Shown here: in pieces, positions 7,373-32,139 of the stretch | Layout of the letters: every line of letters begins with the position of its first letter | Numbering within the stretch: the stretch's first letter is position 1 | IMG/VR virus record: IMGVR_UViG_2609459797_000007 | Strand: one strand, 5' to 3' | Length of the DNA stretch: 33,237 nt | Source: a virus | Lineage: Duplodnaviria > Heunggongvirae > Uroviricota > Caudoviricetes | Notes under the pieces: generated by a model | The model's database searches: none | What the model saw: only the letters and a program-made list of their open reading frames with translations | Told to the model about the DNA's origin: nothing | Program-made: the position numbers and the translations under genes

Positions 7373-8170
7373 TTAGTCATCTAATGCTCCATCAAAATAG
7401 ATCTTTAATGCATTAAATAATTCTTGATAATGATTGCTATTGAAATCACCAGCTTCCCAAAGTTTGTACTTATCCTTAATGGTGTTTTTTGCAAATCCCT
7501 CTTTAAGGGTTTTGTTTACCACGCCACTTTTATCAAGAGGCTTATGATAAACGTCAACATAGAAGCATCTTACATCAAAATTCGCCCCTGTTGGCTTTAT
7601 TACATTAATATCAGAATAGTAGCAATTGTCTTTAACATGTTGATACGATGAAATATTTAAATGACCTAAAAGAGGTAAGACATCTTTAATATTTCCTTGG
7701 GTCGTGCAATATGCTGTCCACTCTTGTTTATACAAATATTTCAGCCAGTTATTGAAAAGTGTATTAGATTTATCTTTTTGGTAATATATGATCAGGCCGC
7801 CACTATTATCTCTTTTTATATATCGTGTTAATAGTTGTAATAAACCTTCAAAAATTTTCTGGTATCCATAACCAATTTTAGCTTCTGCAATCCAAACAAA
7901 TTCACCACCATTAGTTTTAGTGGTGACAGTTATATCAACACTGCCATTCTTTTTTGTTTGTTCGGTAGCCCGATAACCAAAATGTCCCAGTGATGTTACT
8001 ATTGTATGGCTGAGTTTATCCTCATCATCACAATAGTATTTATCACTTGATGACTCCATGGTTTTTATTATTTCTTCGATATCTTTGAAAAGTTGATTAT
8101 GAAAATCACTTTCAGTTATAAAGTAATCACGACGAACGAGATTAGTAGCAAGTGAATTAGTGTTCATCAT
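7373..8170 (-). CDS. Hypothetical protein (265 aa) with a PD-(D/E)xK-like motif; third gene of the accessory island
   Basis: AT-rich ORF. GSVDITV followed 16 residues later by EFVWIAEAKIG (hydrophobic strand then E-x-K), the classic restriction-endonuclease-fold signature. Start overlaps the upstream gene's stop. Confidence 0.6.
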   Translation of the reverse strand: MMNTNSLATNLVRRDYFITESDFHNQLFKDIEEIIKTMESSSDKYYCDDEDKLSHTIVTSLGHFGYRATEQTKKNGSVDITVTTKTNGGEFVWIAEAKIGYGYQKIFEGLLQLLTRYIKRDNSGGLIIYYQKDKSNTLFNNWLKYLYKQEWTAYCTTQGNIKDVLPLLGHLNISSYQHVKDNCYYSDINVIKPTGANFDVRCFYVDVYHKPLDKSGVVNKTLKEGFAKNTIKDKYKLWEAGDFNSNHYQELFNALKIYFDGALDD

Positions 8171-8597
8171 AATTCACCAGGCAATAAAAACTGAGATATT
8201 TTGGGTCGAAATCTTCAATTTCAACACCATTGTCATTCACCGGAACTTCATTATTAGTCATGAAGTTATTGTACTCGTCCTGATGAATGTCAATTCGTTC
8301 ATTATCAACCATCTCATAACAATATTTGATCTCAAATAAATTAGAATTGCCACCACTAAAAAAGCGGACAATTTCCAATAAGTCGGATGTTTTTTTTGCT
8401 TGAGTAGCAATTTGTAAAGTATGAATAGTATAAATATCAAGCTCAATATTATCAGCAATATAATTTAGTAGGTTGTGATAGTTCTGCAATTTACTCGGTT
8501 TAAAAAAAACCGAGTTTTTGCATAGTTCATCAACCAACTCATGTTGCTTTAAAATAATGGGCAACATTTTTTTATACCGTTCTGCTAAGGATGTCAT
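8157..8597 (-). CDS. Hypothetical protein (146 aa, acidic); second gene of the accessory island
   Basis: ORF overlapping both neighbours (26 nt upstream, 14 nt downstream), consistent with a translationally coupled operon. GGGGTGA RBS 5 nt before the ATG. No recognisable motif. Confidence 0.55.
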   Translation of the reverse strand: MTSLAERYKKMLPIILKQHELVDELCKNSVFFKPSKLQNYHNLLNYIADNIELDIYTIHTLQIATQAKKTSDLLEIVRFFSGGNSNLFEIKYCYEMVDNERIDIHQDEYNNFMTNNEVPVNDNGVEIEDFDPKYLSFYCLVNYDEH

Positions 8598-9651
8598 TTA
8601 TCACCCCATAGTGTGAAACAGTGTCGGCCATTTTATTAAAATAAAAAGCACCACAGAATTGATTGTTTGCCCAGTCATTTTTATTAGGTTCAAATCCTAT
8701 TTCATTCGATAACGATTCTGAACCAATTTTATAATCAAAACGAGCAGAAACACCACATACCTTCAAATTGGATATAGTTGAAGTTGAAGTATTGCCTTTA
8801 TTCGTCTCAACCACTTTTCTGTTTCTGGCGTCATAACTAGGTTTCGTTCTACATTTAAGGCTAGCATCCTCATCACCAACAGGATCGACGAAATCTACCT
8901 GCACTAATCGGCCAAAGGAAGCATCGTTGTATATATTATTAATTGCTTTATAAAAATTGACAGTTTCTAAATTTAAAGAAACATTGTTTTCAGACAAAAA
9001 CTCTAAAAACTTAATTCTTAAATCAGTAATTGCTCGTTCGAAAACGCGACGACCAAGTTTACGATCAACCCTATATTCAACACGACTTAAGTCATTAGGA
9101 ATGAAAACTGTATTGAAAAATTGAACAGGGTATTGGTTTGAGCGTAATTTACTTCTCCCACTGATTTTCTTAATTAACACATAAGAAAAGATAATTGCTA
9201 CACCATCTCCCATGTTTTCGACAGAAGTAATGAAATGCCCTGGTGAAGCAGGTAGTCCACTATCTTCATCAAGCTTCATAGGGAATGCATCACGAAAACA
9301 TTTTTCATAATTAGAATAATTAGCAAACTGAGAAATAGCTTTAAGGTTTCCACCTCGAATAAAATCAATAGCATAGTAATGATTTACAGAGGTTATTATT
9401 TTTAGCAATAATAATTTGAGAGACGCCTCAGTTGCAAGCTTATGAGCCATTCCAGGATTAGAAAGCGTTCGTATGATACTGTCTTTAGTTCCTGCCCATC
9501 GGGTTCCGATCTGGAATCCATAAGGTGTTCCTACGCGACGAAAAAATCCTAATTCTTCAGTTTGCTCAAGAGAAGTAAGAATCTTTTCAACTTCTTTTTG
9601 GTTAAATGTAGGCGCAGATTGGGTGGCTCCAAGCGCAGTTTGAGTAGTCAT
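8572..9651 (-). CDS. Hypothetical protein (359 aa); first gene of the accessory island
   Basis: Long AT-rich ORF with no P-loop, no HUH and no TIR-like pattern that I can see. Sits between A and cos, where P2 carries tin/old. Confidence 0.6.
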   Translation of the reverse strand: MTTQTALGATQSAPTFNQKEVEKILTSLEQTEELGFFRRVGTPYGFQIGTRWAGTKDSIIRTLSNPGMAHKLATEASLKLLLLKIITSVNHYYAIDFIRGGNLKAISQFANYSNYEKCFRDAFPMKLDEDSGLPASPGHFITSVENMGDGVAIIFSYVLIKKISGRSKLRSNQYPVQFFNTVFIPNDLSRVEYRVDRKLGRRVFERAITDLRIKFLEFLSENNVSLNLETVNFYKAINNIYNDASFGRLVQVDFVDPVGDEDASLKCRTKPSYDARNRKVVETNKGNTSTSTISNLKVCGVSARFDYKIGSESLSNEIGFEPNKNDWANNQFCGAFYFNKMADTVSHYGVINDILSRTV

Positions 9652-10110: not shown

Positions 10111-11172
10111 TTATTTCATGGTTTCCAGCAGGGCGTAAGGTTTAAAGCGGATCACTTCTTCCCCCAGCCAGTCGTTGACGTGCTTCAGCGCTTCCATTGC
10201 TGGCATTAGTTCGTTGATGGCAAACACGCGCGCGGCCTTCTCCACATCACCGAATGAGCCGTTGCCGTCCGGCATGGCCCCCATCAGTTGCGGTGGTACG
10301 CGGTGAGCCGCCAGAATGTCATCGCGTGTCGCTGATTTAATATTTAAAAACTCATCCTTTGCTGATATCTGGCTGAAGGGCATCAGTTGTACCCCGTCTT
10401 TACCGCCGCCTGGCGCGTGGATCACTACGTTCTTAAATGCCCCTTTGTTTCTGGCTCCCGCCAGTGTTTGCTGTATGACTTTTACGCCAGCGTCGTCCAC
10501 CTGTGATGTGCCGATATACAGAATGCATCCGGCATGAGATCCGTTTTCGTAATACATCTTGCGGAACATGTCCGCCGAGTGTGACAGGCTGGCTGACAAT
10601 AGCGCGCCCATGTACTCCGGCATCCCGTAGATCTCCTGATGAATGTCAGGGTTCAACACATGGCAGACAGAGCCGGTTTTAAAAGCTGATTCGTCTTTCC
10701 ACTGCCTGATAAACCAGTATGTATCCAGGTCAATGCCACGCCGGGTGTATTTCGCCGGGGAATGGCGGAGCGGTAGCAGCCCGCCTAGTCGGTTATTTCG
10801 TTCTTCCAGGTAGAAGTTGCCAAACACAAACCAGTCAAGCGCCAGGGCGGAGAACGTCTGGCGAGACAGTAGCGGGTGTGGGATGAAGAAACCCGCCAGC
10901 GCGTTGCGCTTGAAGTACAGCGCTGACTGGTGCCAGGACGCCTTGCCGAATGAGCGCGCAAGCCCGTACCAGTCCACCGGTGTTTCGTAATATCTGCCGT
11001 TATCGGCGCAATACATATTGTCGAGCAGGTCGTAAGCGTCAGCGACCTGGTATGGCCCATCAAAGGTGAAAGCGCTAAGGGCTGGATCGCGCTTCAGTGC
11101 TTCACCAATATCATGTTGCTGTGTACCGTCAGTAAGCATAGTCAGGCCGCTTTCGTGTGTTGTTGTGTTCAT
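10111..11172 (-). CDS. Q: Portal (capsid vertex) protein, P2 gpQ family
   Basis: About 353-aa ORF next to cos and downstream of the terminase ATPase; its ATG overlaps the P stop (TAATG). Size and synteny match P2 Q. The track's longer start at 11253 overlaps P and is unlikely. Confidence 0.8.
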   Translation of the reverse strand: MNTTTHESGLTMLTDGTQQHDIGEALKRDPALSAFTFDGPYQVADAYDLLDNMYCADNGRYYETPVDWYGLARSFGKASWHQSALYFKRNALAGFFIPHPLLSRQTFSALALDWFVFGNFYLEERNNRLGGLLPLRHSPAKYTRRGIDLDTYWFIRQWKDESAFKTGSVCHVLNPDIHQEIYGMPEYMGALLSASLSHSADMFRKMYYENGSHAGCILYIGTSQVDDAGVKVIQQTLAGARNKGAFKNVVIHAPGGGKDGVQLMPFSQISAKDEFLNIKSATRDDILAAHRVPPQLMGAMPDGNGSFGDVEKAARVFAINELMPAMEALKHVNDWLGEEVIRFKPYALLETMK

Positions 11173-12896
11173 TAAAACTCTCTTACGGAACCGCCGCCGC
11201 TGCCGTTCTCGCGTCCAAGTGGCTCGTTGATGATTGCCAGCATATTTGCCCAAGCTAAGTCGCCATGACTGACGCCGCGCGCGCGATCGGTGTCATAGGT
11301 AATTTGTCCACCGGCGGTGGTGATTTTCCTGACGGCGTTGAATGCTGACACTAACGCCTGTTCACTACGGTCATACTCCCAGCGGCCCGCGCGGATCACC
11401 TGCTGCATTTTGAGTACCAGAGTGCGCTTTGATGACAGCGACATGATGAAACAGACCGCCGCCGGGAAGAATTTCTTGACCAGTTGCCAGACCGCTTCAC
11501 CAATGCCGGTACCGTCAATTGCGATGTGCCGGACGTTGTATTTAATGGTCAGGTCTTCGATCACTTTGGCCTGTTCTTCAAACTCCATCCCGCGTAGCTG
11601 GCGCGTCTCTATCGTGCGGAACTTGCCGCCACTGACCAGGGGAGGGGTAACCACGGAAACAGCGCCGCTGTCACCGTTGCCACTGCCGCCGTTGGCGTCG
11701 TAGCCTATCCAGACTTCACGATCGCCAAGCGGGCGGGGGGCGTAGGGTTTCCAGTCCTGCCAGTCGTCGTAGCCGTCCGCGCCGCACGTCAGTAGCTGAT
11801 TAAGTGAGAAAACGGATTCGCCTTCTTTGACGAACTCACACATGTACAGGTTGGTGTATTCATCCGGGGTATTTTCGTCCTGAATTTCTTCCAGATCGGT
11901 GAACTCCCAGCCGTGGTCGATCACGTCCTTCAGGGTGACAATCTGCCGCCAGGTTTTGTCCGGGCACAACAGGCCGCTGTTGAGTGTCTTCCAGCTTGTG
12001 TCGAAGTCTACCCGGCTGGATTTGGCCCGCTTCTCATTCCAGCGCTTGCCCGTCCAGAACGGGTAGGCTTCATGGTTTTCGCTCGATGGCGTTGAAAAGT
12101 AAGTGCGCGTAAGCCCTTTCAGGGTTGCCATAGCTCCAGCTACTTTGCGAAGGTTTGCAAAGTTACCTACCCAGAAAAACTCATCAAAAAACAGGTTGCC
12201 GGTGTAGCTCTGCGCGGTAGCGGCAGACGTGCCGAGAAAATGCAATTCAGCGCCGTTCGACAATAGAATTTTGTCACCGCCTTTTAGTTCTACGTCTACC
12301 TCTTCGGCAATCTTCTGGATGAAGCCACGGAACTGGTGCGCCTGGCGACGCGACGCTGATAGAAAAATCTGGTTGCGCTGATATCCGTGCTTAATGTCAT
12401 CTCGCAGCGCCTGTAATAGTGCCTCGCGGGCAAAGTACCAGGTTGCGCCAATCTGGCGGCTTTTCAGGATCATGCGGTTTCGTTGCTGGCGCTGTTCAAA
12501 CCATCCCTGCTGATGCCAGGCCAGAGAGTCCTGAATCTTTTCCCGTAGCGCGGCGATCTGCGCTTCGGTGAAGTGGTTTTTCTTCTTGCTCGCGCGCGCC
12601 TTCTTGAAGGGTTGCGCCGGTTGCCCTTCTGCCAGTTTCTTCACCTGGCGCGTGAGCGCGTCGATTTCTTTCAGATCGCTGCCGGTCTTCGTTGGTTTCA
12701 TCGCGATTTGGCATAACCGGGCATCAATAGATTGCGTGACGCGCTGAATTGCGGGCGTTTCGTCCCATTCGTCGCGTTTCTTCCACGAATAAACCGTGTT
12801 TGAACTGATACCCATCAGGCGTGAAATCTCTGCTGGCGGGTAGCCCTGCCAGTAAAGCTGCTTTGCTCTCTGTCTTACAAATGCGTCCTGGATCAT
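11172..12896 (-). CDS. P: Terminase large (ATPase) subunit, P2 gpP family
   Basis: Roughly 575-600-aa ORF divergent from O. Start taken at the internal Met (12896) because the track's start at 12980 would run through the late-promoter dyad. Synteny with P2 P. Confidence 0.8.
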   Translation of the reverse strand: MIQDAFVRQRAKQLYWQGYPPAEISRLMGISSNTVYSWKKRDEWDETPAIQRVTQSIDARLCQIAMKPTKTGSDLKEIDALTRQVKKLAEGQPAQPFKKARASKKKNHFTEAQIAALREKIQDSLAWHQQGWFEQRQQRNRMILKSRQIGATWYFAREALLQALRDDIKHGYQRNQIFLSASRRQAHQFRGFIQKIAEEVDVELKGGDKILLSNGAELHFLGTSAATAQSYTGNLFFDEFFWVGNFANLRKVAGAMATLKGLTRTYFSTPSSENHEAYPFWTGKRWNEKRAKSSRVDFDTSWKTLNSGLLCPDKTWRQIVTLKDVIDHGWEFTDLEEIQDENTPDEYTNLYMCEFVKEGESVFSLNQLLTCGADGYDDWQDWKPYAPRPLGDREVWIGYDANGGSGNGDSGAVSVVTPPLVSGGKFRTIETRQLRGMEFEEQAKVIEDLTIKYNVRHIAIDGTGIGEAVWQLVKKFFPAAVCFIMSLSSKRTLVLKMQQVIRAGRWEYDRSEQALVSAFNAVRKITTAGGQITYDTDRARGVSHGDLAWANMLAIINEPLGRENGSGGGSVREF

Positions 12897-12961
12897 GCGG
12901 TGTCCTCTCGTTTCGATGGAGAGATTAACCCGCGCGCGTGGGCCGTTCCCGCTGTTTGGGT

Positions 12962-12988
12962 TGTGGGCTTTCTCTGACAACTAAAACG
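12962..12988. promoter_or_regulatory. Late promoter element: TGT-N12-ACA dyad (12962-12979) within the conserved 18-mer TCTCTGACAACTAAAACG (12971-12988), in the divergent P/O region
   Basis: TGT-N12-ACA is the established binding element for the Ogr family at P2 late promoters. The same 18-mer recurs at 30614-30631. Confidence 0.6.
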
Positions 12989-13052
12989 CGTTGAGACAAT
13001 GACTTACCAACTGACATCATGGAAAAACAGAAACCAACCGGCAGGAAAGAAC

Positions 13053-13892
13053 ATGAGTGAAACCAGCAAACCTACCCGGAAGAAATTCCGCGTTGCCGTC
13101 TCCGGTGCCACCGTTGACGGGCGCGAAATTCGACCAGATCACCTCCGTGATGCTGCCGCGAGCTATAGCCAGGACGTTTACGGCGCTCGCGTGAATGTTG
13201 AGCATTATCTCTCGCCTTATCCAGGCAGTGATTTTGGCGCGATGGGGGATGTTACGGCGCTTAGCGCTGAGGACATTACCGAAGGCCCGCTAGCGGGGCG
13301 CACTGCGTTATATGCGGAAATTGAACCTTCAGCGCAAATGAAGGCGCTGACAGATGCCGGTAAGAAAGTCTATTCCAGTATCGAATTGCACCCGCAATTT
13401 GCACTAAACGGTAAGGCCTACATTGTCGGCTTGGCGATGACTGATACCCCGGCAAGCTTGGGCACTGAGCGTCTGAAGTTTGCGGCCCAGCAGCGTCAGC
13501 AGGTACAGGCGTTCAATCAGCAGCAGGGCGAAAGCGCGATGTTCTCTGATGCCATTGAAGCTGAAACGATCGAACTGGCAGGGCAGCGAAGCGATGAAGG
13601 TAGCAAGTGGTTTAGCCGCATGAAGGAACTTCTGACCAAAAACCATAAAACAGATGGCGAGCAATTCAGCCAGGTGCGCGAAGTGGTTGAAGGTGTTGCC
13701 ACGTCTCAGGCGGGCCTTATCGATCAAGTTGCGGAACTGACAAGCCAGCGCGCTGACGACGCTAAGGAAATCCAGAAGCTGACCAGTGAGCTGACCGACC
13801 TGAAAACCACGCTGGCAAAGCAGGACGCCAACACCTTCAGCCGCCAGCCCGCACAGGGCGGTAACACCGGCGTCGAACAGGCCGATTACTAA
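13053..13892 (+). CDS. O: Capsid scaffolding protein, P2 gpO family
   Basis: About 279-aa ORF; N-terminus KKFRVAVSGATVDGREI agrees with my memory of P2 gpO (FRIGVEGDTCDGRVI). ATG 13053 with RBS chosen so the start lies downstream of the late promoter. Confidence 0.8.
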   Translation: MSETSKPTRKKFRVAVSGATVDGREIRPDHLRDAAASYSQDVYGARVNVEHYLSPYPGSDFGAMGDVTALSAEDITEGPLAGRTALYAEIEPSAQMKALTDAGKKVYSSIELHPQFALNGKAYIVGLAMTDTPASLGTERLKFAAQQRQQVQAFNQQQGESAMFSDAIEAETIELAGQRSDEGSKWFSRMKELLTKNHKTDGEQFSQVREVVEGVATSQAGLIDQVAELTSQRADDAKEIQKLTSELTDLKTTLAKQDANTFSRQPAQGGNTGVEQADY

Positions 13893-13915
13893 CCACGCAA
13901 GCGAGAACAAAACAC

Positions 13916-15001
13916 ATGGAAAACAGTACCCGCGTACTTTTTAACGGCTATATCGATCGCCAGGCCAATTTAAGTGGCGTTCGTTCAGATGATGTCGCCA
14001 AGTCCTTCAGCGTTGAGCCGTCTGTGCAACAGCGCATGGAAAAGGCATCAATGGAAAGTGATGATTTTCTGAAGAAAATTAACGTCTTTCCGGTAAAAGC
14101 CCAGGAAGGTCAGAAAATCCAGATCGGTAGCAAAGGCCCGATTGCGAGCACCAGTAACAGCAGCGACGGCAACTCCCGCCGCAATCCGGTAGACAATCAC
14201 TCTAAAGAGCCGAGCACCTACCGCTGCCGTAAGACCAACTACGACTCAGCCGTAAGCTATTCGCAGTTAGACGCCTGGTCTATGCAGCCTAATTTTCAGT
14301 CACTGATCAGCGAGGCAAACGCCCGACAGGTTGCGCTCGACCGTATCATGATCGGTTTCAACGGTACGTCATACGCTGAAAAATCTGATCGTGCCGCCAA
14401 CCCGATGTTACAGGATTGTGGCGTTGGCTGGCTTCAGAAAATCCGCAACGATGCCCCGCACCGCATTATCAGTAAGGTCACTCTGACTGCGCGTGATGAA
14501 GATAACAAAATTGTCGCCAAAGGCACCTATGGCAACCTCGACGCGGCTGTGTTCGACGCCAAAAACACGTTGATGGATAAATGGCAACGTAAAGCGCCGG
14601 ATCTGGTCGTGATTCTGTCGGCTGACCTGCTTACCAGTAGCTATTTCCCGAAACTGAACGCGCTGAGCCAGACCAATCCGAACAGCGAACTGATCGCGGC
14701 ACAGTTGATTGTGTCCAGTGAAAAAGTTGGCGGTCTGCCGGTGGTCTTCGCGCCGTATATGCCTGATGACTGCGTGCTGATCACGTCACTGAAAAACCTG
14801 TCTGTGTATTACCAGTTGGGTGCGCTTCGCCGAACCATCAAAGAAGAACCGGAATATGACCGCGTGGCTAACTACCAGTCCTCAAACGATGACTTCGTTG
14901 TAGAAGACTACGGCAAATGCGCATTCATTGACGGGATCACCTTCGCGGAGGCCGCCCCGGAAACGCAGTCCGCAGAACCTGAAGAGAACGCGGGCGCGTA
15001 A
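13916..15001 (+). CDS. N: Major capsid protein, P2 gpN family
   Basis: 361-aa ORF in the O-N-M-L block; size matches P2 N (357 aa). Confidence 0.85.
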   Translation: MENSTRVLFNGYIDRQANLSGVRSDDVAKSFSVEPSVQQRMEKASMESDDFLKKINVFPVKAQEGQKIQIGSKGPIASTSNSSDGNSRRNPVDNHSKEPSTYRCRKTNYDSAVSYSQLDAWSMQPNFQSLISEANARQVALDRIMIGFNGTSYAEKSDRAANPMLQDCGVGWLQKIRNDAPHRIISKVTLTARDEDNKIVAKGTYGNLDAAVFDAKNTLMDKWQRKAPDLVVILSADLLTSSYFPKLNALSQTNPNSELIAAQLIVSSEKVGGLPVVFAPYMPDDCVLITSLKNLSVYYQLGALRRTIKEEPEYDRVANYQSSNDDFVVEDYGKCAFIDGITFAEAAPETQSAEPEENAGA

Positions 15002-15044
15002 CTGAAATTGCGGGCGTATATGCGCCCGCCACCAGGAGACTCAA

Positions 15045-15866
15045 ATGTTAACCCCAGCGCAAAAACACTTTCAGAAAGTGATGGCTGATCGACGCGGAGA
15101 CAGCGCCGCACAGCATGGCGTTGTTCGCACCGCGCATGAGCAAATTTTGCATCGTCTACGCCTCGATCAGGCATCTCTTAAGGCGGTGCAATCTACTGAA
15201 ACAAAAGCTGTGATGAAGCGTGACATGTTGCCGAATTACCAGGGCTGGATTGATGGAACTCTGGAGGGCGACAGCGGGCGGCAGGACGAAGTGATTACCA
15301 CGATGATGCTGTGGGCGATCGACTGCCAGGACTACCCGCAAGCGCTGAAGATTGGGCGCTATGTGGTGAAGCATGACCTGTCTATGCGTGACGATTTCAA
15401 GCGTACCGCGCCGGTGATGCTGGCTGAAGAAATCAGCAACCAGGCGCTGAACGTCGCGACGACTGACGCTGAGGCGGATATGTCGGCTTATGTCACCGTG
15501 CTCGATGACCTGGCGGAGATTGTCGCCGGGGCTGATATGCCGGACGAAGTGCAATCCAAGCTTTGCAAGGCCCGCGCTTTCTCACGCCGTGGAACGGCTG
15601 ACAATGAGACAAAAGGCGAAGCGCTAAAACTGTTTCGACGTGCGACGGAACTGAACCCCGCAGCGGGTGTGAAACGTGAAATGCAGTCTATTTCACGCGA
15701 ACTGAAGAAGCTGGCGGCGCAACCGGAAGCGACAGCACAACCGGAGCCTGTGCCGGTTGTCGTAGAGAAGAAAACCGTACGTAAGTCGCGCGAGGCTAAA
15801 GCTGCGAAACCGGCAGCAAAAGCCCGCGCACCACGTAAAACGGCGAAAGTTAAAAAAGAATCTTAA
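15045..15866 (+). CDS. M: Terminase small (endonuclease) subunit, P2 gpM family
   Basis: 273-aa ORF after N with an AGGAG RBS. Basic Lys/Ala-rich C-terminal tail. Synteny. Confidence 0.8.
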   Translation: MLTPAQKHFQKVMADRRGDSAAQHGVVRTAHEQILHRLRLDQASLKAVQSTETKAVMKRDMLPNYQGWIDGTLEGDSGRQDEVITTMMLWAIDCQDYPQALKIGRYVVKHDLSMRDDFKRTAPVMLAEEISNQALNVATTDAEADMSAYVTVLDDLAEIVAGADMPDEVQSKLCKARAFSRRGTADNETKGEALKLFRRATELNPAAGVKREMQSISRELKKLAAQPEATAQPEPVPVVVEKKTVRKSREAKAAKPAAKARAPRKTAKVKKES

Positions 15867-15963
15867 CGACTTCGGCCCCGACCGACAGGAGGCACGCGCG
15901 GAGATCTGCCCGTAACTGGTCTTTTCACCGCGTGTCCACCTCCTGACTTTTTAAGGAGCGCTC

Positions 15964-16461
15964 ATGAGTAGCCTGATAGCGACAAAAACGCCGTTTCCGG
16001 CTGGCAGTGACGTAACTGATGTTGATGACGGAGATTCCACGGTAACGGCGGGAAGTTTCTGGCCTGTCATTAACCTGAAGGATTTACGCCTTGCCGCGCG
16101 TATTACCGGCGGCGTCACTACTTCGCGACTGATGCACGTCACTACCGAGGCTGTGGGACACGTCATCGAACAGCTTGAAGAGTGGCAGATCAATCAGCAG
16201 GGGCTGGGCTATGAGGCGCTGAAGAACGTGCCCGCCGTGGAGATAAACGGCGAGAGCGTGAAGGTGTATCGCTACCGTCGTGCGGTTTATTCCATTGCCC
16301 GCGCCCTGGTGATTGAAGGTTACCGGGACGTTGATACCACGCCAAAAGGCGACAAAGACGCCGCCGCGCTGGATTTGCAGCGTGAAGATCTCTGGCGTGA
16401 TGCTCGCTGGGGTATTGCAGACATCCAGCGCAAGCCGCGCGTTTATGCGGAGTTGTGCTGA
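15964..16461 (+). CDS. L: Head completion/stabilisation protein, P2 gpL family
   Basis: 165-aa ORF with an AAGGAG RBS. Size and position match P2 L (169 aa). Confidence 0.8.
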   Translation: MSSLIATKTPFPAGSDVTDVDDGDSTVTAGSFWPVINLKDLRLAARITGGVTTSRLMHVTTEAVGHVIEQLEEWQINQQGLGYEALKNVPAVEINGESVKVYRYRRAVYSIARALVIEGYRDVDTTPKGDKDAAALDLQREDLWRDARWGIADIQRKPRVYAELC

Positions 16462-16661
16462 TGAAGGTCACGGCGTTACAGGGCGATACGCTGGATCAGC
16501 TATGCCACCGGTACTACGGAAAAACCAAAGGCGTTACTGAAGAAGTGTTGACCGCCAATCCGGGGCTGAGTGGGCAAGTTTTTTTAAACGCAGGGCAGAT
16601 GGTTGAAATGCCGGACATTGATACCCAGCCCGCACAGGAAATGGTGCAGTTATGGAGTTGA
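16461..16661 (+). CDS. X: Tail protein X, P2 gpX family
   Basis: About 66-aa ORF; its ATG overlaps the L stop (TGATG). Size and position match P2 X (67 aa). Confidence 0.75.
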   Translation: MKVTALQGDTLDQLCHRYYGKTKGVTEEVLTANPGLSGQVFLNAGQMVEMPDIDTQPAQEMVQLWS

Positions 16662-16948
16662 ATTCGTTTCACCGGCTATGGGACTGGGTTACCTGGGTTT
16701 CTTCATCCATCAGCGTTGGTGTTGGTGTGATGACGTGGAATGAAAAGCTGGGGGTTGCCGGTCTGGTTTTGGGTGTCCTGTCTGGCTGGCGCGCCTGGGT
16801 GCATCGTGCGCGGGTGGAGAAGGCACAGGCCCGCCGAAACTCACTGATTGAGCAAATTCTTGATCAGGCCGAGCGCCGGGGGCTTACCGATTTTGAGCGG
16901 GTGAAGCTGGCGCAATTCCAGGCGGGTGACGATGAAGACGGTTATTAA
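16652..16948 (+). CDS. Y: Holin, P2 gpY family
   Basis: 98-aa ORF with hydrophobic segments (WVTWVSSSISVGVGVMTW, LGVAGLVLGVLSGW) and a charged C-terminus, directly upstream of the endolysin. Confidence 0.7.
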   Translation: MELNSFHRLWDWVTWVSSSISVGVGVMTWNEKLGVAGLVLGVLSGWRAWVHRARVEKAQARRNSLIEQILDQAERRGLTDFERVKLAQFQAGDDEDGY

Positions 16949-17474
16949 GCGTTGCTCTATCGCCGTGATTGTTGCCCTGGGCTTATCAATGTCGCCCGAT
17001 GCGCTGAGAACGTCGCCGGAAGCACAGCAAAAAATAGCCTCCTGGGAAGACTGCCGTAACACGCCTTATTACTGCACCGCCGGAGTGTTGACCGTGGGGA
17101 TCGGTTCCACCGGCAATGTGGAAAAACGCGAGTACAGCAACGCTGAAGTAGCGCGCCGGTGGGTTAGTGATATGCAGCATGCTGAACGCTGCGTAAATCA
17201 GAACTTCAACGGCGAAGCGATGCCGCAAAAGGTATTCGAAAGCATGGTTGATGGTGGGCTGAATGTGGGTTGTACGGGCCTGATGTGGTTTACCGATAAG
17301 CGGGGCCACAAACAGCGAACAACCATCTGGAAAAACGCCCAGGCGCATGACTGGCACGGCGTCTGTGATCGCTTAACTGACTTTGTGAACAGTGCCGGTA
17401 AACGCTCACAAGGGCTGGTCAATCGGCGCACTGACTTTCAGGCATGGTGCAGGATGGATGCGGGGGCGCAATGA
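16932..17474 (+). CDS. K: Endolysin, lysozyme-like muramidase (P2 gpK / lambda R family) with an N-terminal hydrophobic signal-anchor-like segment
   Basis: ASWEDCRNTPYYCTAGVLTVGIGSTG resembles the catalytic region of phage lysozymes. N-terminal KRCSIAVIVALGLSMSP is hydrophobic. ATG 16932 is preferred over the GTG at 16926. Confidence 0.8.
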   Translation: MKTVIKRCSIAVIVALGLSMSPDALRTSPEAQQKIASWEDCRNTPYYCTAGVLTVGIGSTGNVEKREYSNAEVARRWVSDMQHAERCVNQNFNGEAMPQKVFESMVDGGLNVGCTGLMWFTDKRGHKQRTTIWKNAQAHDWHGVCDRLTDFVNSAGKRSQGLVNRRTDFQAWCRMDAGAQ

Positions 17475-17845
17475 AATCAATTTTATGGGGCTTGGTGCTG
17501 GCTGTAGTGGCTCACGTATCAGGGTATTACCAGGGATATAAGAGCGGTGTAGCGGATGACAACGAACAAAAGTTACAGCGCATGTTTGATGAAAGCGAAG
17601 CCGTGATAGGTGAAATGCGCGATCTGTCTGCTGACGCGCGCGCGGTGCTGGCTGAGGCCAGGAAGACCGAACAGGCCCGCAATACTGAAGGCGAACAACG
17701 CCGCGAAAAGATAACAGAGGGGATGCGTGATGATTCGTGTGCCGGTGCTCTTGCTCCTGCTGCTGTCACTGATGGGCTGCTCCGAAAAAGTCAGAGTGCA
17801 AACGCGGCTGATTCACGAGCCGATACCGGAAAGCCTCACAAATGA
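17471..17845 (+). CDS. lysB: Rz-like inner-membrane spanin (LysB)
   Basis: N-terminal TM (ILWGLVLAVVAHV) followed by a charged coiled-coil region. Start overlaps the K stop. Position matches P2 lysB. Confidence 0.7.
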   Translation: MKSILWGLVLAVVAHVSGYYQGYKSGVADDNEQKLQRMFDESEAVIGEMRDLSADARAVLAEARKTEQARNTEGEQRREKITEGMRDDSCAGALAPAAVTDGLLRKSQSANAADSRADTGKPHK

Positions 17846-18017
17846 AACGCCCACGCCAGCACTGAAAACGCCGGTGACGTGGGGGGGTATTGCAATTTGG
17901 GCCGATCAGTTACATGACGCCCTTGATACCTGCAATGCGGATAAAAGTGATATCCGGGCGTTAAATCTTTTGCGCCTGGCGCGCCAGAAAGGAGTGAAAC
18001 CACATGCTGAAAATTAA
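17727..18017 (+). CDS. lysC: Rz1-like outer-membrane lipoprotein spanin (LysC), partly embedded in lysB in another frame
   Basis: Signal peptide with lipobox (LLLLLLSLMGC), Pro-rich mature region, overlaps the 3' part of lysB. Confidence 0.7.
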   Translation: MMIRVPVLLLLLLSLMGCSEKVRVQTRLIHEPIPESLTNETPTPALKTPVTWGGIAIWADQLHDALDTCNADKSDIRALNLLRLARQKGVKPHAEN

Positions 18018-18459
18018 CTCGTTACGTAAAGCGCTCACTGACTCTAATCAGTGGTGTCGTGCAAACCCTGAAGCCTTCAGCGTTTTTATTGAATCAGGGC
18101 ATGTTGAGACGACCGGCGAAACGGCTGATTTTGTTTACGCCTATACGCTGTGTCTCTTTGTGATGAATTTTGCCGGTGATCTGGATGATTTCACGTTACC
18201 GCTGATGGCCTGGTTGTGGCAGGAACAGCCACAACTGTTATTTAACCCGGATAAGAACAAAGAAATTAAGTTTACAACCGCAATCAATAACGACGACACC
18301 GCCGATTTGTTTTTTGAACTGCCCATCAGCGAGCGTGTGATCGTAATGCGCAATGACGATGGCACGTTAAAGGCAAATCACAAGCCAGAGCCTCGCCCAC
18401 GTATACCGCCGGAATGGAGTGGAATTATTGAGGACGTTACCTGGAGTGCGTCCCTATGA
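18004..18459 (+). CDS. R: Tail completion protein R
   Basis: 151-aa ORF; size and synteny match P2 R. Confidence 0.75.
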   Translation: MLKINSLRKALTDSNQWCRANPEAFSVFIESGHVETTGETADFVYAYTLCLFVMNFAGDLDDFTLPLMAWLWQEQPQLLFNPDKNKEIKFTTAINNDDTADLFFELPISERVIVMRNDDGTLKANHKPEPRPRIPPEWSGIIEDVTWSASL

Positions 18460-19094
18460 GTACCGAAGATATTCACGTACTGGATCAGTATTTCTCTGAC
18501 ATCCTGACGGGGGTATCACCTGCCGGGCGAGCCAGGACGGCGCGCGAAGTTGGGAAGATGCTGCGTATCAGCCAACAGCAGCGTATACGCGCACAGCGCA
18601 ATCCGGATGGAAGCCAGTACCCGTCGCGTCGCCGTAAAACGCTGCGTACCCAGCAAGGGATCGCTTTTATCTGGGAAGGGCAGTTAAGGCGGCTGAAGAA
18701 CTGGCACAGCGGGCGCGGCAAATACGGGCGAACCATTACCGGATTTGATGAAGACCGAAACGAGATCCGCACGTTCTACCGCGCCGATATTGAGCGTTAT
18801 ACGGAAATCAATACCCGCGCGGGCCAGCGTTCAAAAATGGTCAAGGCTCCGATGTTCGTGAAGCTGAGAACCGCCCGATTTATGAAAGTTAAGGCATCCA
18901 GTGAGGGGGCCGAGGTGGGTTACAGCGGCATGGCAGCCCGTATTGCGCGCATTCATCAGTACGGGTTGCGTGAACAGGTCGGGCCGGGGGCGTTTGCGAA
19001 GTATGCGCCGCGTGTCCTGCTGGGTATTTCTAAGGCCGATGAAGCGCTGATCCGTAGTGCGGTGATTAACAGCTTGGGGAGTGCTGGGGCATGA
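18456..19094 (+). CDS. S: Tail completion protein S
   Basis: 212-aa ORF overlapping the R stop; synteny with P2 S. Confidence 0.75.
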   Translation: MSTEDIHVLDQYFSDILTGVSPAGRARTAREVGKMLRISQQQRIRAQRNPDGSQYPSRRRKTLRTQQGIAFIWEGQLRRLKNWHSGRGKYGRTITGFDEDRNEIRTFYRADIERYTEINTRAGQRSKMVKAPMFVKLRTARFMKVKASSEGAEVGYSGMAARIARIHQYGLREQVGPGAFAKYAPRVLLGISKADEALIRSAVINSLGSAGA

Positions 19095-19672
19095 GTGCCG
19101 AATTGTTGCGCCTCCTGTCTAACATGCTCCGTGTGGGCGTGGTTTTTGCCATATCGGAAGACGGTAAGAGTGTACGGGTGCAGAGCGATGATTTGCAGAC
19201 AACCTGGCTTCGCTGGACGACGACGCGCGCCGGTGCTTTTAAATTCTGGTGCCCGCCATCGCTGGGCGAACAAGTTTTGTTGGGATGTATCGGCGGCAAT
19301 CCTGAAACAGCCGTTTTGCTGGGCAGCCTCTACAGCAGCGAAAACGACGCCCCCGCCAGTAGTCTGATGCAGATGATGATCACCGCACCTGATGGGGCTG
19401 AATTTAGCTATGACGCAAAGGCGGGCGCGCTGAGTGCTGGCGGCATGAAAACAGCCACTATTCAGGCAAAGACAAAAATCACACTGGATACGCCAGAGGT
19501 GGAATGCACCAACCATCTGAAGGCGAAAACCTTTGATTTCTCTGAGGGCGGCGCGCTGACCGGCAATGTAACTCACAGCGGCGGTGCACTTACGTCAAAC
19601 GGCGTCCAGGCTGACGACCATGATCATGGTGGTGTTCAGAGTGGTAATAGCAGGACTAAGGGGACGGCATGA
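19091..19672 (+). CDS. V: Baseplate spike/assembly protein V
   Basis: 193-aa ORF; synteny V-W-J-I and size match P2 gpV. Confidence 0.8.
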   Translation: MSAELLRLLSNMLRVGVVFAISEDGKSVRVQSDDLQTTWLRWTTTRAGAFKFWCPPSLGEQVLLGCIGGNPETAVLLGSLYSSENDAPASSLMQMMITAPDGAEFSYDAKAGALSAGGMKTATIQAKTKITLDTPEVECTNHLKAKTFDFSEGGALTGNVTHSGGALTSNGVQADDHDHGGVQSGNSRTKGTA

Positions 19673-23814: not shown

Positions 23815-23815
23815 G

Positions 23816-24172: not shown

Positions 24173-24185
24173 AACGTTTAAGAAA
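24161..24185. repeat. Right inversion crossover site (hix/gix-like): TTCTTTCAAACC-AA-CGTTTAAGAAA
   Basis: Resembles hixL (TTCTTGAAAACCAAGGTTTTTGATAA) as I recall it. Located about 55 bp upstream of the invertase start codon. Confidence 0.65.
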
Positions 24186-24240
24186 ATGCAGATTTGCACC
24201 CTGGCTGGCATCATTCCGGCTTTTGCATGAGGGAAAGCAA

Positions 24241-25318: not shown

Positions 25319-25330
25319 TGTTTTGCTCTC

Positions 25331-29338: not shown

Positions 29339-30529
29339 TTAGTTACTCCCCAGAGACGAAAACGCGCCTTCAAAATATTCATCGGTGAACGTCTGGATCA
29401 GCGTTAAATCTTCCATCGGCGGTACTGGCGTATACTTGTAACGGATCGCCACTTTTCCCTGAATCAGGTTTGCGGTCGGGTTGTCCACAATGTCAAACCA
29501 CGCCTCCGCGCCAAGCAGCTTGCCAGCGGTCACAAGTGCGCTGAGTTTCTTGTTAATTGCACTCACCACGTCTTTCACGTTGGTTGGGGTAAGTGGCCCG
29601 TCAACGGTTTCAAACTGTGCCTCTGCGATGGTGTCCGCCAGGATTTGCGCCGTACGGGTGTACACCTCAAAAGTAAATTCATTGGTGTCAGTGGTGCGGT
29701 TGCCCCAGAAGCGGAAGCCGTTACGCTTGATGATGGTGGTGATTTCATCGTTGTTCAGCGTCTGGGCGTCGCTGTCTTCAGCCTGGAGCGCCCAGAAAAC
29801 GTCCTTCGACATGCCAAGCACGTTACTGACGGCGATGTTAGACAGAGAACGATGCCAGCCGTATTGGTTGTCAATAAACGCGCGCAGCCCTACCGCATAG
29901 GCTGGGGCGGGAAACTCTTCATTTGCCCCGGACACCTGGTTATAGGCAATGTAGTTAGGCCAGATCAGCATGAGTTCACGTGATGCGAAGGTTTCACGAT
30001 ATTGCCGGGCCTCTGCCAGTGTGTTGCAGCCGTTACAGCCAGCATAAACAAAGGCGCGAAGCTGTTTGGCGATCACGCAAAGCTGTGATGTTACTTCTTC
30101 GGTATCGTATTCCGGCACCGCCAGGACGCGCGGGCGATATCCCGTTTTTTGTTCGGCGGTCAGTAGCGCATACATGCCGGTGTAGTTACCGTCAGCATCA
30201 GAGCCACCAATAATCAACTGCGACTGTGTTTCCGCCGTTTTCCCTTCCTCCGGCGGTTTAGCCGTGGCAACACGAACAACAATGATTTTCGCGCTTGCCT
30301 GGTCTGAAATAGCTTTCAGTGTTTTGTACAACGTCCCTGTTTTCCCTGCCTTGCCGAGCATCGACTGAGGCCGCGTGATAAGCGTTGGGATGTTAAGTGG
30401 GAAAGCGTCTTCGTCTGCGTCATCAGCGACGACAATCACGCCAATGACGCTGGAGTCAATGTCGTTAATTACCCTCGTGATGTCGGTTTCTTCTTTGGTG
30501 CGAGCACCGTGAAAACGTGTCTCAGACAT
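29339..30529 (-). CDS. FI: Contractile tail sheath protein FI
   Basis: About 396-aa ORF; matches my memory of P2 FI along its length (FPLN.P.LIT, GTLY/GTLA, KLRAF, RELM.IWP, GWH.TLSN, GFRFWGNRT, NYTRTAQ..ADT.AEA, KY.YTPVPP.E.LTL). ATG 30529 preferred over 30541. Confidence 0.9.
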   Translation of the reverse strand: MSETRFHGARTKEETDITRVINDIDSSVIGVIVVADDADEDAFPLNIPTLITRPQSMLGKAGKTGTLYKTLKAISDQASAKIIVVRVATAKPPEEGKTAETQSQLIIGGSDADGNYTGMYALLTAEQKTGYRPRVLAVPEYDTEEVTSQLCVIAKQLRAFVYAGCNGCNTLAEARQYRETFASRELMLIWPNYIAYNQVSGANEEFPAPAYAVGLRAFIDNQYGWHRSLSNIAVSNVLGMSKDVFWALQAEDSDAQTLNNDEITTIIKRNGFRFWGNRTTDTNEFTFEVYTRTAQILADTIAEAQFETVDGPLTPTNVKDVVSAINKKLSALVTAGKLLGAEAWFDIVDNPTANLIQGKVAIRYKYTPVPPMEDLTLIQTFTDEYFEGAFSSLGSN

Positions 30530-30604
30530 GTTTGTCACCATTACGTTTTGTTGAGTTCGCCACCATGATTGCTGATTGATGTAACGGCTTCACGCCTTTC
30601 TGGT

Positions 30605-30631
30605 TGTGCTATCTCTCTGACAACTAAAACG
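30605..30631. promoter_or_regulatory. Late promoter element: TGT-N12-ACA dyad (30605-30622) with the same 18-mer TCTCTGACAACTAAAACG (30614-30631), in the divergent FI/D region
   Basis: Exact 18-bp identity with the P/O promoter element at 12971-12988, including the Ogr-type dyad. Confidence 0.6.
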
Positions 30632-30682
30632 AATTCTCCCACGCGCGCCCGCGTGGAATTATTCAGCAAAACGGGAGGGTAT

Positions 30683-31816
30683 ATGAGTGTTTCAGTGATC
30701 AGCAGTATGATTTCGGGCGCGGCTGGCGGTGTCGATGACATCCTGACGGAGGCGTTAAAAATACCAGCATTCAGCGTCCGGCAAGGCGGGAAGGTGTTAA
30801 CAGAATTATCAGATCGCGTGATATCCATCAGCCTGACGGACAACCGGGGTTTTGACGCCGATCAGCTGACATTAGAGCTGGATGACACTGATGGAAGCGT
30901 TGCTCTTCCGCCGCGTGGCGCTGAGTTGTCTTTCTGGCTGGGGTGGATGGGTGAAGCGCTGGTTTATAAGGGCATCTACACGGTTGATGAAGTGGCGCAC
31001 GACGGGCCGCCCGACCGTATCACCGTGACCGCCAGAAGTGCAGATTTCAGAGAGGAGTTTAACGTAAAGCGTGAAGTCTCCTGGCATGATGTGACTGTGG
31101 AGCGGGTTGTGTCTGCTATCGCAAAACGGTATGACCTGACGCCGCAAATCAGCGATCTGTTGATGGATGTGGAAATTGACCATGCCGATCAGACTCAGGA
31201 AAGCGATATGTCATTTCTGACCAGAATGGCGGAAATGTTAGGGGCCATCGCCACGGTAAAAAATGGAAGTCTGCTGTTTATCGTGCCGGGTGGTGGTTTC
31301 ACTGCATCAGGGAAGGCTATTCCGTCGATTGCCATCACGCGCAGCAGTGGAGACCGGCACCGCTTCCGGGTTGCTGATCGTGACGCTTATACCGGCGTCC
31401 GCGCGTACTGGCTTGATCTGAACTACGGGAAAAAGAAAAAGGTTAGCGTTCATCGCCGTGCCACAACGAAAAAAAAGGATAAGAGCAGCAGCAGGGAAGG
31501 TGACTACATTGAAGGCGCTGAAGGTAACGTTTTTATTATGCGTAAAACCTTCCAGAACGAAGAAGCCGCCAGGCGCGCAGCGGCGGCAAAGTGGCAGCAG
31601 TTACAGCGCGGCGCGGCGGAGTTTTCGATCACCCTGGCGCGCGGGCGTGCGGAGTTGTACCCGGAAATGCATTCGACGGTGACCGGTTTTAAGGCAGATA
31701 TTGACGCCCAGGACTGGATAATCAGCAAGGTACAGCATGACGTTGATAGCAACGGATTTACTACACAGCTTAACTTTGAAGCAAAAATATCTGACTGGAT
31801 CGCAGAAACTGAATAG
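30683..31816 (+). CDS. D: Tail protein D (late gene D)
   Basis: About 377-aa ORF preceding ogr. ATG 30683 with a GGGAGGG RBS. Size and position match P2 D. Confidence 0.8.
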   Translation: MSVSVISSMISGAAGGVDDILTEALKIPAFSVRQGGKVLTELSDRVISISLTDNRGFDADQLTLELDDTDGSVALPPRGAELSFWLGWMGEALVYKGIYTVDEVAHDGPPDRITVTARSADFREEFNVKREVSWHDVTVERVVSAIAKRYDLTPQISDLLMDVEIDHADQTQESDMSFLTRMAEMLGAIATVKNGSLLFIVPGGGFTASGKAIPSIAITRSSGDRHRFRVADRDAYTGVRAYWLDLNYGKKKKVSVHRRATTKKKDKSSSREGDYIEGAEGNVFIMRKTFQNEEAARRAAAAKWQQLQRGAAEFSITLARGRAELYPEMHSTVTGFKADIDAQDWIISKVQHDVDSNGFTTQLNFEAKISDWIAETE

Positions 31817-31854
31817 AATGGCGATGAGTTCAACTCCCCAGGGGAGTCACCATT

Positions 31855-32109
31855 ATGTTCAGATGCCCACATTGCGGCGCTACGGCCCGCACACGTACCA
31901 GTAAGCCACTAAACGAAGAGCAAACCATATACAGGCAGTATCACCAGTGCCAGAACATGGAATGCGGATTGTCATTCACCACGCTTAACAGCGTTGAAAA
32001 GATAGTCACTAAACGTGAGCGCCGCGAAGAGTTATCCCCTGATTTTATCCCTGCCGGTGTTTTTCCTGCCTCGCATTACGGACGCGATCAGCTAAATTTA
32101 GCGATATAA
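31855..32109 (+). CDS. ogr: Late transcription activator Ogr (zinc-finger)
   Basis: 84-aa ORF with CPHCG...CQNMECG (C-x2-C...C-x4-C); MFRCPHCGATARTRTSK is the typical Ogr/delta N-terminus. Last prophage gene before the host junction. Confidence 0.9.
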   Translation: MFRCPHCGATARTRTSKPLNEEQTIYRQYHQCQNMECGLSFTTLNSVEKIVTKRERREELSPDFIPAGVFPASHYGRDQLNLAI

Positions 32110-32113: not shown

Positions 32114-32139
32114 GGCCCCGCAGACGCGGGGCTTTTTTT
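32114..32139 (+). terminator. Rho-independent terminator after ogr (GCCCCGC-agac-GCGGGGC followed by T7)
   Basis: GC stem and 7-T run read directly, 5 nt after the ogr stop. Confidence 0.8.

What the first reader, a model, noticed from the sequence alone, without database searches (positions are those of the whole stretch)
12962..12988. Exact 18-bp repeat TCTCTGACAACTAAAACG at two divergent late promoters, each containing a TGT-N12-ACA dyad
The same 18-mer occurs at 12971-12988 (between P and O) and 30614-30631 (between FI and D), in the same + strand orientation, each overlapping a TGT-N12-ACA dyad of the kind bound by Ogr-family activators. Identity beyond the dyad suggests duplication of a promoter module. 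This fits D having acquired an O-type promoter when it was separated from the F operon.
Basis: partly seen in the sequence, partly recalled or inferred. Interest (0 to 1): 0.45.

Follow-up and report, generated by a model that had tools for sequence, protein, structure and literature searches.

The report
Shared late-activator sites in P2-like prophage
The repeated 18 bases are half of the docking site for the phage's own late-gene activator, found once in each of two back-to-back promoter regions of a P2-like E. coli prophage; this is an ordinary, already understood kind of phage switch, here in a less-studied gene arrangement.

Summary
TCTCTGACAACTAAAACG occurs exactly twice, at 12971-12988 and 30614-30631 on the + strand. 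Each copy overlaps a TGT-N12-ACA dyad. The flanking genes are terminase P / scaffold O and sheath FI / tail protein D. The window is an E. coli P2-like prophage that encodes an Ogr/Delta zinc-finger activator.

I read the 18-mer as the O- and D-proximal half of a roughly 32-43 bp activator site. Each dyad has a -10-like hexamer 46-47 bp away on both sides. P2 has the same geometry at its mapped pP/pO starts. The P2 and 186 records annotate one activator site for two divergent promoters. So two sites probably drive four late units: P-Q, O-to-G, FI-to-U and D-ogr. There is no separate V promoter.

The "duplicated O-type promoter for D" idea is only partly supported. The site faces D as it faces O. 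But the FI/D layout is shared by at least six ICTV-classified Peduoviridae genera. The ACAAC(A/T)AAA flank is conserved in all of them. The left arm covaries between the two sites of a genome (TGT or TCT). The D core promoter resembles P's, not O's. Selection on a protein-binding site explains most of the identity. This is a new member of a known kind, of low to moderate interest.

The parts
12962..12979 (.). TGT-N12-ACA dyad of the P/O control region (centre 12970.5)
   Evidence: Homologous in position to the P2 'activator binding site; pO, pP promoters' and to the 186 B site for pV and p12.
12946..12988 (+). Extended repeat copy 1 (43 nt). It contains the 18-mer at 12971-12988, which is the right half-site plus the 9-nt flank ACTAAAACG.
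30605..30622 (.). TGT-N12-ACA dyad of the FI/D control region (centre 30613.5)
30589..30631 (+). Extended repeat copy 2 (43 nt, 79% identical to copy 1). It contains the 18-mer at 30614-30631.
12922..12927 (-). Predicted -10 hexamer TAATCT of the P promoter, centred 46 bp from the dyad centre
   Evidence: TAATCT lies at 45-47 bp in all six related genomes. P2 has TAGCCT at the same distance from its mapped pP start.
12991..13020 (+). Predicted O promoter: TTGAGA, 18-nt spacer, (TG)CATCAT. The -10 is centred 47 bp from the dyad centre.
30565..30570 (-). Predicted -10 hexamer AATCAT of the FI promoter, centred 46 bp from the dyad centre and followed by the conserved GAACTCA
30657..30662 (+). Predicted -10 hexamer AATTAT of the D promoter, centred 46 bp from the dyad centre
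12929..12944 (.). GC-rich CGCGCGCG block in the spacer of the P core promoter
30638..30656 (.). GC-rich palindrome CCACGCG-CGCC-CGCGTGG in the spacer of the D core promoter; it resembles the P-side block
11172..12896 (-). gpP, terminase large subunit
13053..13892 (+). gpO, capsid scaffold/protease
29339..30529 (-). gpFI, tail sheath; first gene of the inverted FI-FII-E-T-U block
30683..31816 (+). gpD, tail/baseplate hub protein
31855..32109 (+). Ogr/Delta-family zinc-finger activator (CX2CX24CX4C), the presumed ligand of both sites
32115..32139 (+). Intrinsic terminator after ogr, the likely end of the D-ogr unit

Best explanation
The two 18-mers are the same half of two copies of one cis-element. 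That element is the binding site of the prophage's Ogr-family late activator (gene at 31855-32109).

Each site is a quasi-palindrome, GGTTGTG-N11-ACAAC, with flanks. It sits midway between two divergent late genes. On each side a weak core promoter has its -10 hexamer 46-47 bp from the dyad centre, so the dyad is centred near -55/-56 for all four promoters.

The activator, bound as a symmetric oligomer, would recruit RNA polymerase to either side through the alpha C-terminal domain, as established genetically for P2 Ogr. Two sites would then switch on the whole late regulon: P-Q, O through G, FI through U, and D-ogr. The last unit would give positive feedback on ogr.

The 18-mer covers the right half-site (positions about -55 to -47 of pO and pD) and 9 flanking bases (about -46 to -38). 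It is identical in the two regions because these bases are contacted by the same protein(s) and are under purifying selection. There may be some extra homogenisation in this lineage.

Shown here: the sequence, the gene context, the conservation, the covariation and the geometry. Inferred: binding, transcription start sites, activator dependence and bidirectional use.
For: 1. Exact repeat and extended 43-nt similarity, the longest direct repeat in the window.
2. The only two TTGT-N12-ACAA dyads lie in the only two divergent late intergenic regions.
3. An Ogr_Delta zinc finger is encoded: 58.7 bits against a cut-off of 26.3, with four Cys conserved alongside P2 Ogr.
4. The P2 record annotates one activator site for pO and pP. 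Mapped starts 3016(-) and 3127(+) are symmetric about 3071.5, which is exactly the centre of the homologous TGT-N12 frame.
5. The 186 record annotates one B-protein site for 'activation of pV and p12 promoters'. Smp131 is reported with PP' and PO' on the same dyad (PMC3931495).
6. In the window and six related phages, NANNNT hexamers lie 45-47 bp from the dyad centre on both sides of both dyads. P2's hexamers sit at the same distance and end 7 nt before the mapped starts.
7. In relatives with gpD 84-100% identical (window clade, 11 FI/D loci, 10 P/O loci), TCTGACAACTAAAA is invariant at both sites while the spacer and outer flank vary.
8. Across six lineages the two sites of one genome are more alike than sites of different genomes: 128 against a mean of 117.8, with 15 of 720 permutations reaching that. 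The left arm gives 39 against 31.5, with 14 of 720. It switches between TGT and TCT at both sites together.
9. ogr mutations suppress rpoA109 (L290H, alpha-CTD) (PMC11434276).
Against: - No transcription start, binding or expression data exist for this phage. The -10 hexamers are weak (3-4 of 6) and NANNNT is common by chance, so only their conserved position counts.
- The related phages share ancestry, so the 26 conserved sides are not independent observations.
- The permutation test rests on six lineages (p about 0.02).
- The flank beyond the dyad is A-rich here but is CCGGGAC in P2. Its role (activator contact or alpha-CTD contact) is therefore unclear.
- The window's two sites are more alike (26/32) than those of other lineages (15-25/32). 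Selection alone does not fully explain this.
Confidence: 0.8

Rival explanations
1. The FI/D site is a copy of the pO promoter module, gained by duplication or gene conversion when D was cut off from the F operon. The exact 18-mer is a remnant of that copying event, not a product of selection.
For: - The site polarity is O-like towards D in 5 of 6 inverted-block phages, whereas in P2 and 186 it faces FI/J.
- The window pair has the highest within-genome identity (26/32). Its FI/D spacer is pyrimidine-rich like P/O spacers, unlike the GC-rich FI/D spacers of other lineages.
Against: - The layout is shared by at least six ICTV-classified genera, so any copying event is ancient. Yet the 18-mer region is still identical, or nearly so, in relatives whose gpD is only 84-87% identical. 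That requires selection.
- Similarity stops about 47 bp in.
- The D core promoter resembles P's, not O's.
- P2's pO and pF show the same kind of identity beyond the dyad without any separation of D.
- Spacers show no within-genome concordance in general: 26 against 26.7.
Confidence: 0.2
2. Each dyad serves only the promoter on its ACAAC-AAAA side (O and D). P and FI would be driven by other, unrecognised elements or by activator-independent promoters.
For: - The sites are asymmetric in flank, and in some lineages in arm (GGTCTGG against GACAAC).
- The P- and FI-side hexamers are weak, and the consensus scan found no sigma-70-type promoter there.
Against: - P2 and 186 are annotated with one site for both divergent promoters, with mapped P2 starts symmetric about it.
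- There is no second dyad in either region. With starts about 110 bp apart there is no room for one.
- TAATCT on the P side, and GATTAT/GAATAT/AATCAT plus GAACTCA on the FI side, are conserved at 45-47 bp in all relatives.
Confidence: 0.1
3. The repeat is not a transcription element. It would be a chance repeat, a recombination or invertase crossover site, or the site of a host protein.
For: - A DNA invertase is encoded at 24100-24810.
- The bare TGT-N12-ACA pattern is not enriched in the window.
Against: - The chance expectation is 0.01.
- The copies are direct, not inverted. They are 17.6 kb apart and are conserved at the same two places in phiT5282H, whose annotated record lists no invertase.
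- No Rfam family matches.
- The position is homologous to annotated activator sites of P2 and 186.
Confidence: 0.03

Closest known systems
P2 pP/pO activator-binding site (GenBank NC_001895, 3057-3087) and the 186 B-protein site for pV and p12 (NC_001317, 3798-3817)
   Same: - It lies in the same position between the terminase (P) and scaffold (O) genes.
- One quasi-palindromic site is centred about 55 bp from two divergent starts.
- It has the same TTGTG left arm and the same arm spacing.
- The cognate activator is an Ogr/B zinc finger.
   Different: - The right arm here is a perfect ACAAC followed by an A-rich flank. P2 and 186 have CCA(A/T)C / TCCA and non-A-rich flanks.
- The activator is only 36% identical to P2 Ogr and has CX2CX24CX4C spacing.
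P2 pF and 186 pJ, the late promoters of the tail sheath operon
   Same: - An activator site lies upstream of the sheath gene at about -55.
- It resembles the pO site of the same genome beyond the dyad: P2 21/32, window 26/32.
   Different: - In P2 and 186 the promoter is unidirectional and drives FI through D.
- Here FI-U is inverted, the site lies between FI and D, it probably fires both ways, and its O-like side faces D instead of FI.
Late control regions of sequenced inverted-block Peduoviridae: phiT5282H/Novemvirus, ST16-OXA48phi5.4/Reipivirus, 500465-2/Gemsvirus, 3LV2017/Reginaelenavirus, 520873/Xuanwuvirus, Chuche and KSP20
   Same: - They share the gene layout and the two sites.
- They share the ACAAC(A/T)AAA right arm and flank.
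- They share the 45-47 bp geometry on all four sides.
   Different: - Several carry TCT instead of TGT in the left arm at both sites.
- Their spacers differ.
- In the library I searched I found no paper describing promoters of these phages.
Stenotrophomonas phage Smp131, putative late promoters (PMC3931495)
   Same: TGT-N12-ACA-like dyads were predicted from sequence, with PP' and PO' assigned to the same 18 bp read on the two strands. An Ogr-like CX2CX22CX4C protein is present.
   Different: It has a different rearrangement of tail operons and four predicted promoters at three dyad sites. The window has two sites.

Membership tests
Ogr/B/Delta-dependent late promoter control site of P2-like phages | Partial dyad TGT-N12-ACA | tested here: met
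   Perfect dyads lie at 12962-12979 and 30605-30622, extending to TTGT-N12-ACAA. The consensus is as cited in PMC3931495.
Ogr/B/Delta-dependent late promoter control site of P2-like phages | Located upstream of late morphogenetic operons (P-Q, O..., F...) | tested here: met
   The sites lie between terminase P and scaffold O, and between sheath FI and gpD.
Ogr/B/Delta-dependent late promoter control site of P2-like phages | A cognate Ogr/Delta-family C4 zinc-finger activator is encoded by the phage | tested here: met
   PF04606 scores 58.7 bits against a cut-off of 26.3. C4, C7, C32 and C37 align with the P2 Ogr cysteines.
Ogr/B/Delta-dependent late promoter control site of P2-like phages | Core promoter geometry as at mapped P2 promoters: a -10-like hexamer about 46 bp from the dyad centre, placing the dyad near -55 | tested here: met
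   Hexamers TAATCT, CATCAT, AATCAT and AATTAT lie 46-47 bp from the centres and are conserved in six relatives. In P2, GAAACT and TAGCCT lie at 46 bp and end 7 nt before the mapped starts. This is predicted only.
Ogr/B/Delta-dependent late promoter control site of P2-like phages | Transcription starts about 55 bp from the dyad and depends on the activator and on RNA polymerase alpha-CTD | not testable with these tools
   It needs 5'-end mapping, reporter assays and an rpoA109 host. Only the P2 genetics are available from the literature.
Ogr/B/Delta-dependent late promoter control site of P2-like phages | Direct binding of the activator to the dyad | not testable with these tools
   The only indirect support is covariation of the left arm between the two sites of a genome.
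Bidirectional activator site (P2 pP/pO, 186 p12/pV type) | A single site midway between two divergent late promoters whose starts are about 110 bp apart | tested here: met
   There is one dyad per region. The intergenic regions are 156 and 153 bp. Predicted -10 hexamers are symmetric at 46-47 bp. The precedents are annotated. Use of both sides has not been shown experimentally.
Recent segmental duplication of a promoter module | Similarity extends through neutral flanks and core promoter, and is absent or different in relatives that diverged before the event | tested here: not met
   Similarity is limited to about 43-47 bp. The pD core is unlike the pO core. The same two sites are present in at least six ICTV-classified genera.

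The most novel reading that the evidence does not exclude
In this large branch of P2-like phages the whole late regulon runs from just two activator sites, each firing in both directions. The FI/D region would be a second, independently evolved bidirectional Ogr-type promoter. It would have arisen when the FI-U block flipped to the other side of a quasi-palindromic site. The two sites and the activator would then co-evolve in specificity, with the left arm switching between TGT and TCT at both sites together. That gives a natural series for studying how a small zinc-finger activator reads DNA and activates two polymerases from one site.
Probability: 0.5. Interest if true: 0.4.

Novelty: new member of a known kind. 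Interest (0 to 1): 0.25.

Why it matters
It assigns the late-gene switch of an uncharacterised E. coli prophage. It shows that two short sites, 17.6 kb apart, probably control all virion and lysis genes.

The comparative result goes beyond annotation. The arm covaries between the two sites of a genome, and the site polarity is reversed relative to FI. This offers a simple test of activator specificity in the Ogr/Delta family, whose DNA recognition is still poorly defined.

It also warns that the textbook TGT-N12-ACA pattern misses the sites in several genera, which use TCT-N12-ACA.

It does not reveal a new mechanism.

Tried and rejected
- **Genome-contig scan.** I scanned with the 14-mer TCTGACAACTAAAA. 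The pattern was too short for 596 Gb. The 18-mer should have been used.
- **Rfam.** A search of the whole window found nothing.
- **Julien & Calendar 1995 (PMC177091).** The paper is not held, so the footprinting data could not be read. The TGT-N12-ACA consensus is cited second-hand from PMC3931495.
- **Searches for a third site.** I looked for a V-type site using the right arm with up to 2 mismatches and the dyad with up to 1 mismatch. There were no intergenic candidates, and R, S and V overlap, so I dropped the idea of a separate V promoter.
- **Terminator reading of the GC palindrome 30637-30658.** I rejected it. There is no upstream gene on that strand, and the same GC block occurs in P-type core promoters.
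- **UP-element reading of the A-rich flank.** I kept it only as a possibility, because the equivalent flank in P2 is CCGGGAC.
- **Not run.** Protein homology searches, structure prediction and the metagenome scan were not needed for this question.

Full report
**Observation**

- The 18-mer TCTCTGACAACTAAAACG occurs exactly twice, at 12971-12988 and 30614-30631 on the + strand. No other match appears even with three mismatches. Chance expectation is 0.01.
- Each copy overlaps a perfect TGT-N12-ACA dyad, at 12962-12979 and 30605-30622.
- The bare dyad pattern is not enriched: 5 found against 7.5 expected. The other three lie inside genes. The extended TTGT-N12-ACAA is found without mismatch only at these two places.
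- The similarity is longer than reported. The longest direct repeat of the window is 43 nt, 12946-12988 against 30589-30631, at 79%.
- Outside about 47 columns the two intergenic regions do not align.

**Context**

- The window is IMG/VR contig UViG_2609460356_000007. It is a P2-like prophage lying next to an fieF gene that is 100% identical to that of E. coli.
- Gene identities:
  - terminase P, 11172-12896(-)
  - scaffold O, 13053-13892(+)
  - sheath FI, 29339-30529(-)
  - gpD, 30683-31816(+)
  - an Ogr_Delta zinc-finger protein, 31855-32109(+)
- The Ogr homologue scores 58.7 bits against a cut-off of 26.3. It has four cysteines spaced CX2CX24CX4C and is 36% identical to P2 Ogr.
- Relative to P2 and 186 the FI-FII-E-T-U block is inverted, so FI and D diverge from a 153-bp region.
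- R, S and V overlap (18004-19672), which leaves no room for a separate V promoter. No further site was found.
- The layout is not peculiar to this prophage. It is present in these phages:
  - phiT5282H (Novemvirus)
  - ST16-OXA48phi5.4 (Reipivirus)
  - 500465-2 (Gemsvirus)
  - 3LV2017 (Reginaelenavirus)
  - 520873 (Xuanwuvirus)
  - Chuche
  - KSP20

**What the element is**

- The P2 record annotates a single 'activator binding site; pO, pP promoters' between mapped starts at 3016(-) and 3127(+).
- The homologous TGT-N12 frame of P2 (3063-3080) is centred at 3071.5, which is exactly the midpoint of those starts.
- The 186 record annotates one B-protein site for 'activation of pV and p12 promoters'.
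- The Smp131 paper cites TGT-N12-ACA as the consensus of the four P2 late promoters. It places its PP' and PO' on one dyad (PMC3931495).
- In the window both dyads have a NANNNT hexamer centred 46-47 bp away on both sides:
  - P side: TAATCT
  - O side: CATCAT, with TTGAGA as a -35-like hexamer and a TG extension
  - FI side: AATCAT
  - D side: AATTAT
- The same holds for both regions in the related phages examined, where the hexamers lie at 45-47 bp.
- In P2 the hexamers at 46 bp (GAAACT, TAGCCT) end 7 nt before the mapped starts.
- The dyads are therefore predicted to lie at about -55/-56 of four promoters. This is the classical geometry.
- ogr mutations suppress the alpha-CTD mutation rpoA109 (PMC11434276). 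That result is the basis for the recruitment mechanism I infer.

**Why the 18-mer is identical**

- I scanned IMG/VR with gpD and gpO and obtained 33 contigs that carry both regions.
- In the window's own clade gpD is 84-100% identical. There TCTGACAACTAAAA and the GGTTGTG arm are kept at both sites, while spacer and outer flank vary.
- In the phiT5282H-like clade both sites read GGTCTGG...CGACAACAAAA.
- In the Chuche-like phages both left arms carry TTCT.
- In 3LV2017 both sites have GGTTGTG, as does the FI/D site of KSP20, the only one of its sites sequenced.
- The right arm plus flank, ACAAC(A/T)AAA, is conserved everywhere.
- The left arm switches between TGT and TCT, and does so at both sites of a genome together.
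- I ran a permutation test over six lineage representatives:

| Region | Observed within-genome identity | Mean of permutations | Permutations reaching observed |
|---|---|---|---|
| Whole 32-nt frame | 128 | 117.8 | 15 of 720 |
| Left arm | 39 | 31.5 | 14 of 720 |
| Spacer | 26 | 26.7 | 482 of 720 (no signal) |

- This is the pattern expected of two sites read by one co-evolving protein. It is not the pattern of a recent duplication.
- P2's pO and pF likewise share 21 of 32 positions. These include a 17-nt stretch with two mismatches beyond the left arm, although the F operon of P2 is intact.
- The window's pair is the most alike (26/32), and its FI/D spacer is unusually P/O-like. Some lineage-specific homogenisation cannot be excluded.

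- Site polarity gives it partial support. In 5 of 6 inverted-block phages the P/O and FI/D sites match better in direct than in inverted orientation (window: 32/42 against 20/42). The O-like side therefore faces D.
- In P2 and 186 the O-like side faces FI/J.
- A simple inversion that carried pF along with FI would have reversed the polarity. So either the polarity was re-set or the site was replaced.
- The D core promoter is not O-like. It resembles the P core, with a local score of 24 against 12.5 +/- 2.2 (z 5.3). The shared feature is a CCCACGCGCG block in the spacer. The pO-pD similarity is only the 9-nt flank.
- The event predates the split of at least six ICTV-classified genera. The exact 18-mer in this phage is therefore maintained, not left over.

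**Rivals and limits**

- A non-transcriptional role is very unlikely:
  - The copies are direct repeats.
  - They are conserved in phiT5282H, whose annotated record lists no invertase.
  - They are homologous in position to annotated activator sites.
  - There is no Rfam match.
- Unidirectional use of each site cannot be excluded without start-site mapping.
- All functional statements (binding, start sites, dependence on the activator) are inferences.
- The relatives share ancestry, so the conserved geometry counts as conservation. It does not count as independent replication.
- My genome-contig scan was wasted on too short a pattern.

**Verdict**

- It is an ordinary, already understood kind of element: the Ogr-type late activator site, including its bidirectional form.
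- It occurs here in a gene arrangement whose promoters have not, as far as I could find, been described.
- I rate it a new member of a known kind, with interest 0.25.

Noticed in passing
window 24830-30529 (- strand) against 30683-32109 (+ strand): The FI-FII-E-T-U tail block is inverted relative to P2 and 186, leaving D-ogr as a separate rightward unit. The same layout is found in Novemvirus, Reipivirus, Gemsvirus, Reginaelenavirus, Xuanwuvirus, Chuche and KSP20.
   Followed up: partly
window 12929-12944 and 30638-30656: An alternating GC block (CGCGCGCG) fills the -35/-10 spacer of both the P and the D core promoters. It is conserved in the related phages and in P2 pP. The D copy is a palindrome with a 7-bp stem. 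Its function is unknown.
   Followed up: partly
window 18004-19672: R, S-like and V genes overlap, so there is no intergenic space or dyad for a separate V promoter. O through G (13053-23417) looks like one 10.4-kb late unit.
   Followed up: yes
L014 22354-22371 and 6652-6669; L017, L018, L019 and L301 equivalents: In several genera the left arm is TCT, not TGT, at both sites. A TGT-N12-ACA scan therefore misses their late promoters. The arm covaries between the two sites of a genome.
   Followed up: yes
window 23389-24810: A serine DNA invertase (Resolvase + HTH_7) sits next to tail-fibre and assembly ORFs on the opposite strand. This suggests an invertible host-range segment. The crossover sites were not located.
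   Followed up: no
window 7373-9651 (- strand): Three ORFs of 265, 146 and 359 aa lie between the replication gene and the portal gene, the position of old/tin in P2. They have no Pfam hit. The only PADLOC match is a weak PDC-S54 hit (E 1.4e-7) for the 265-aa protein. They may be defence cargo.
   Followed up: partly
window 31791-31819 and 32115-32139: A sigma-70-like promoter (CTGACT, 17-nt spacer, TAGAAT) overlaps the D stop codon upstream of ogr, like the P2 ogr promoter. An intrinsic terminator follows ogr, and a second strong hairpin terminator lies at 32226-32255.
   Followed up: partly
window 32317-33237: The window ends in the host gene fieF, which is 100% identical to that of E. coli. 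This prophage type is rare in complete E. coli genomes: the FI/D region matches in 6 of 5426 and the P/O region in 18.
   Followed up: yes
window 31855-32109: The Ogr homologue has CX2CX24CX4C spacing, with a two-residue insertion relative to the CX2CX22CX4C of P2 Ogr.
   Followed up: no
L018 6700-6745 (Chuche) and L301 34815-34850: On the FI side of the Chuche-type FI/D region, the + strand carries CACGCGCG-TAATCT. This is the P-type core motif, and it points towards the dyad. It is unexplained.
   Followed up: no
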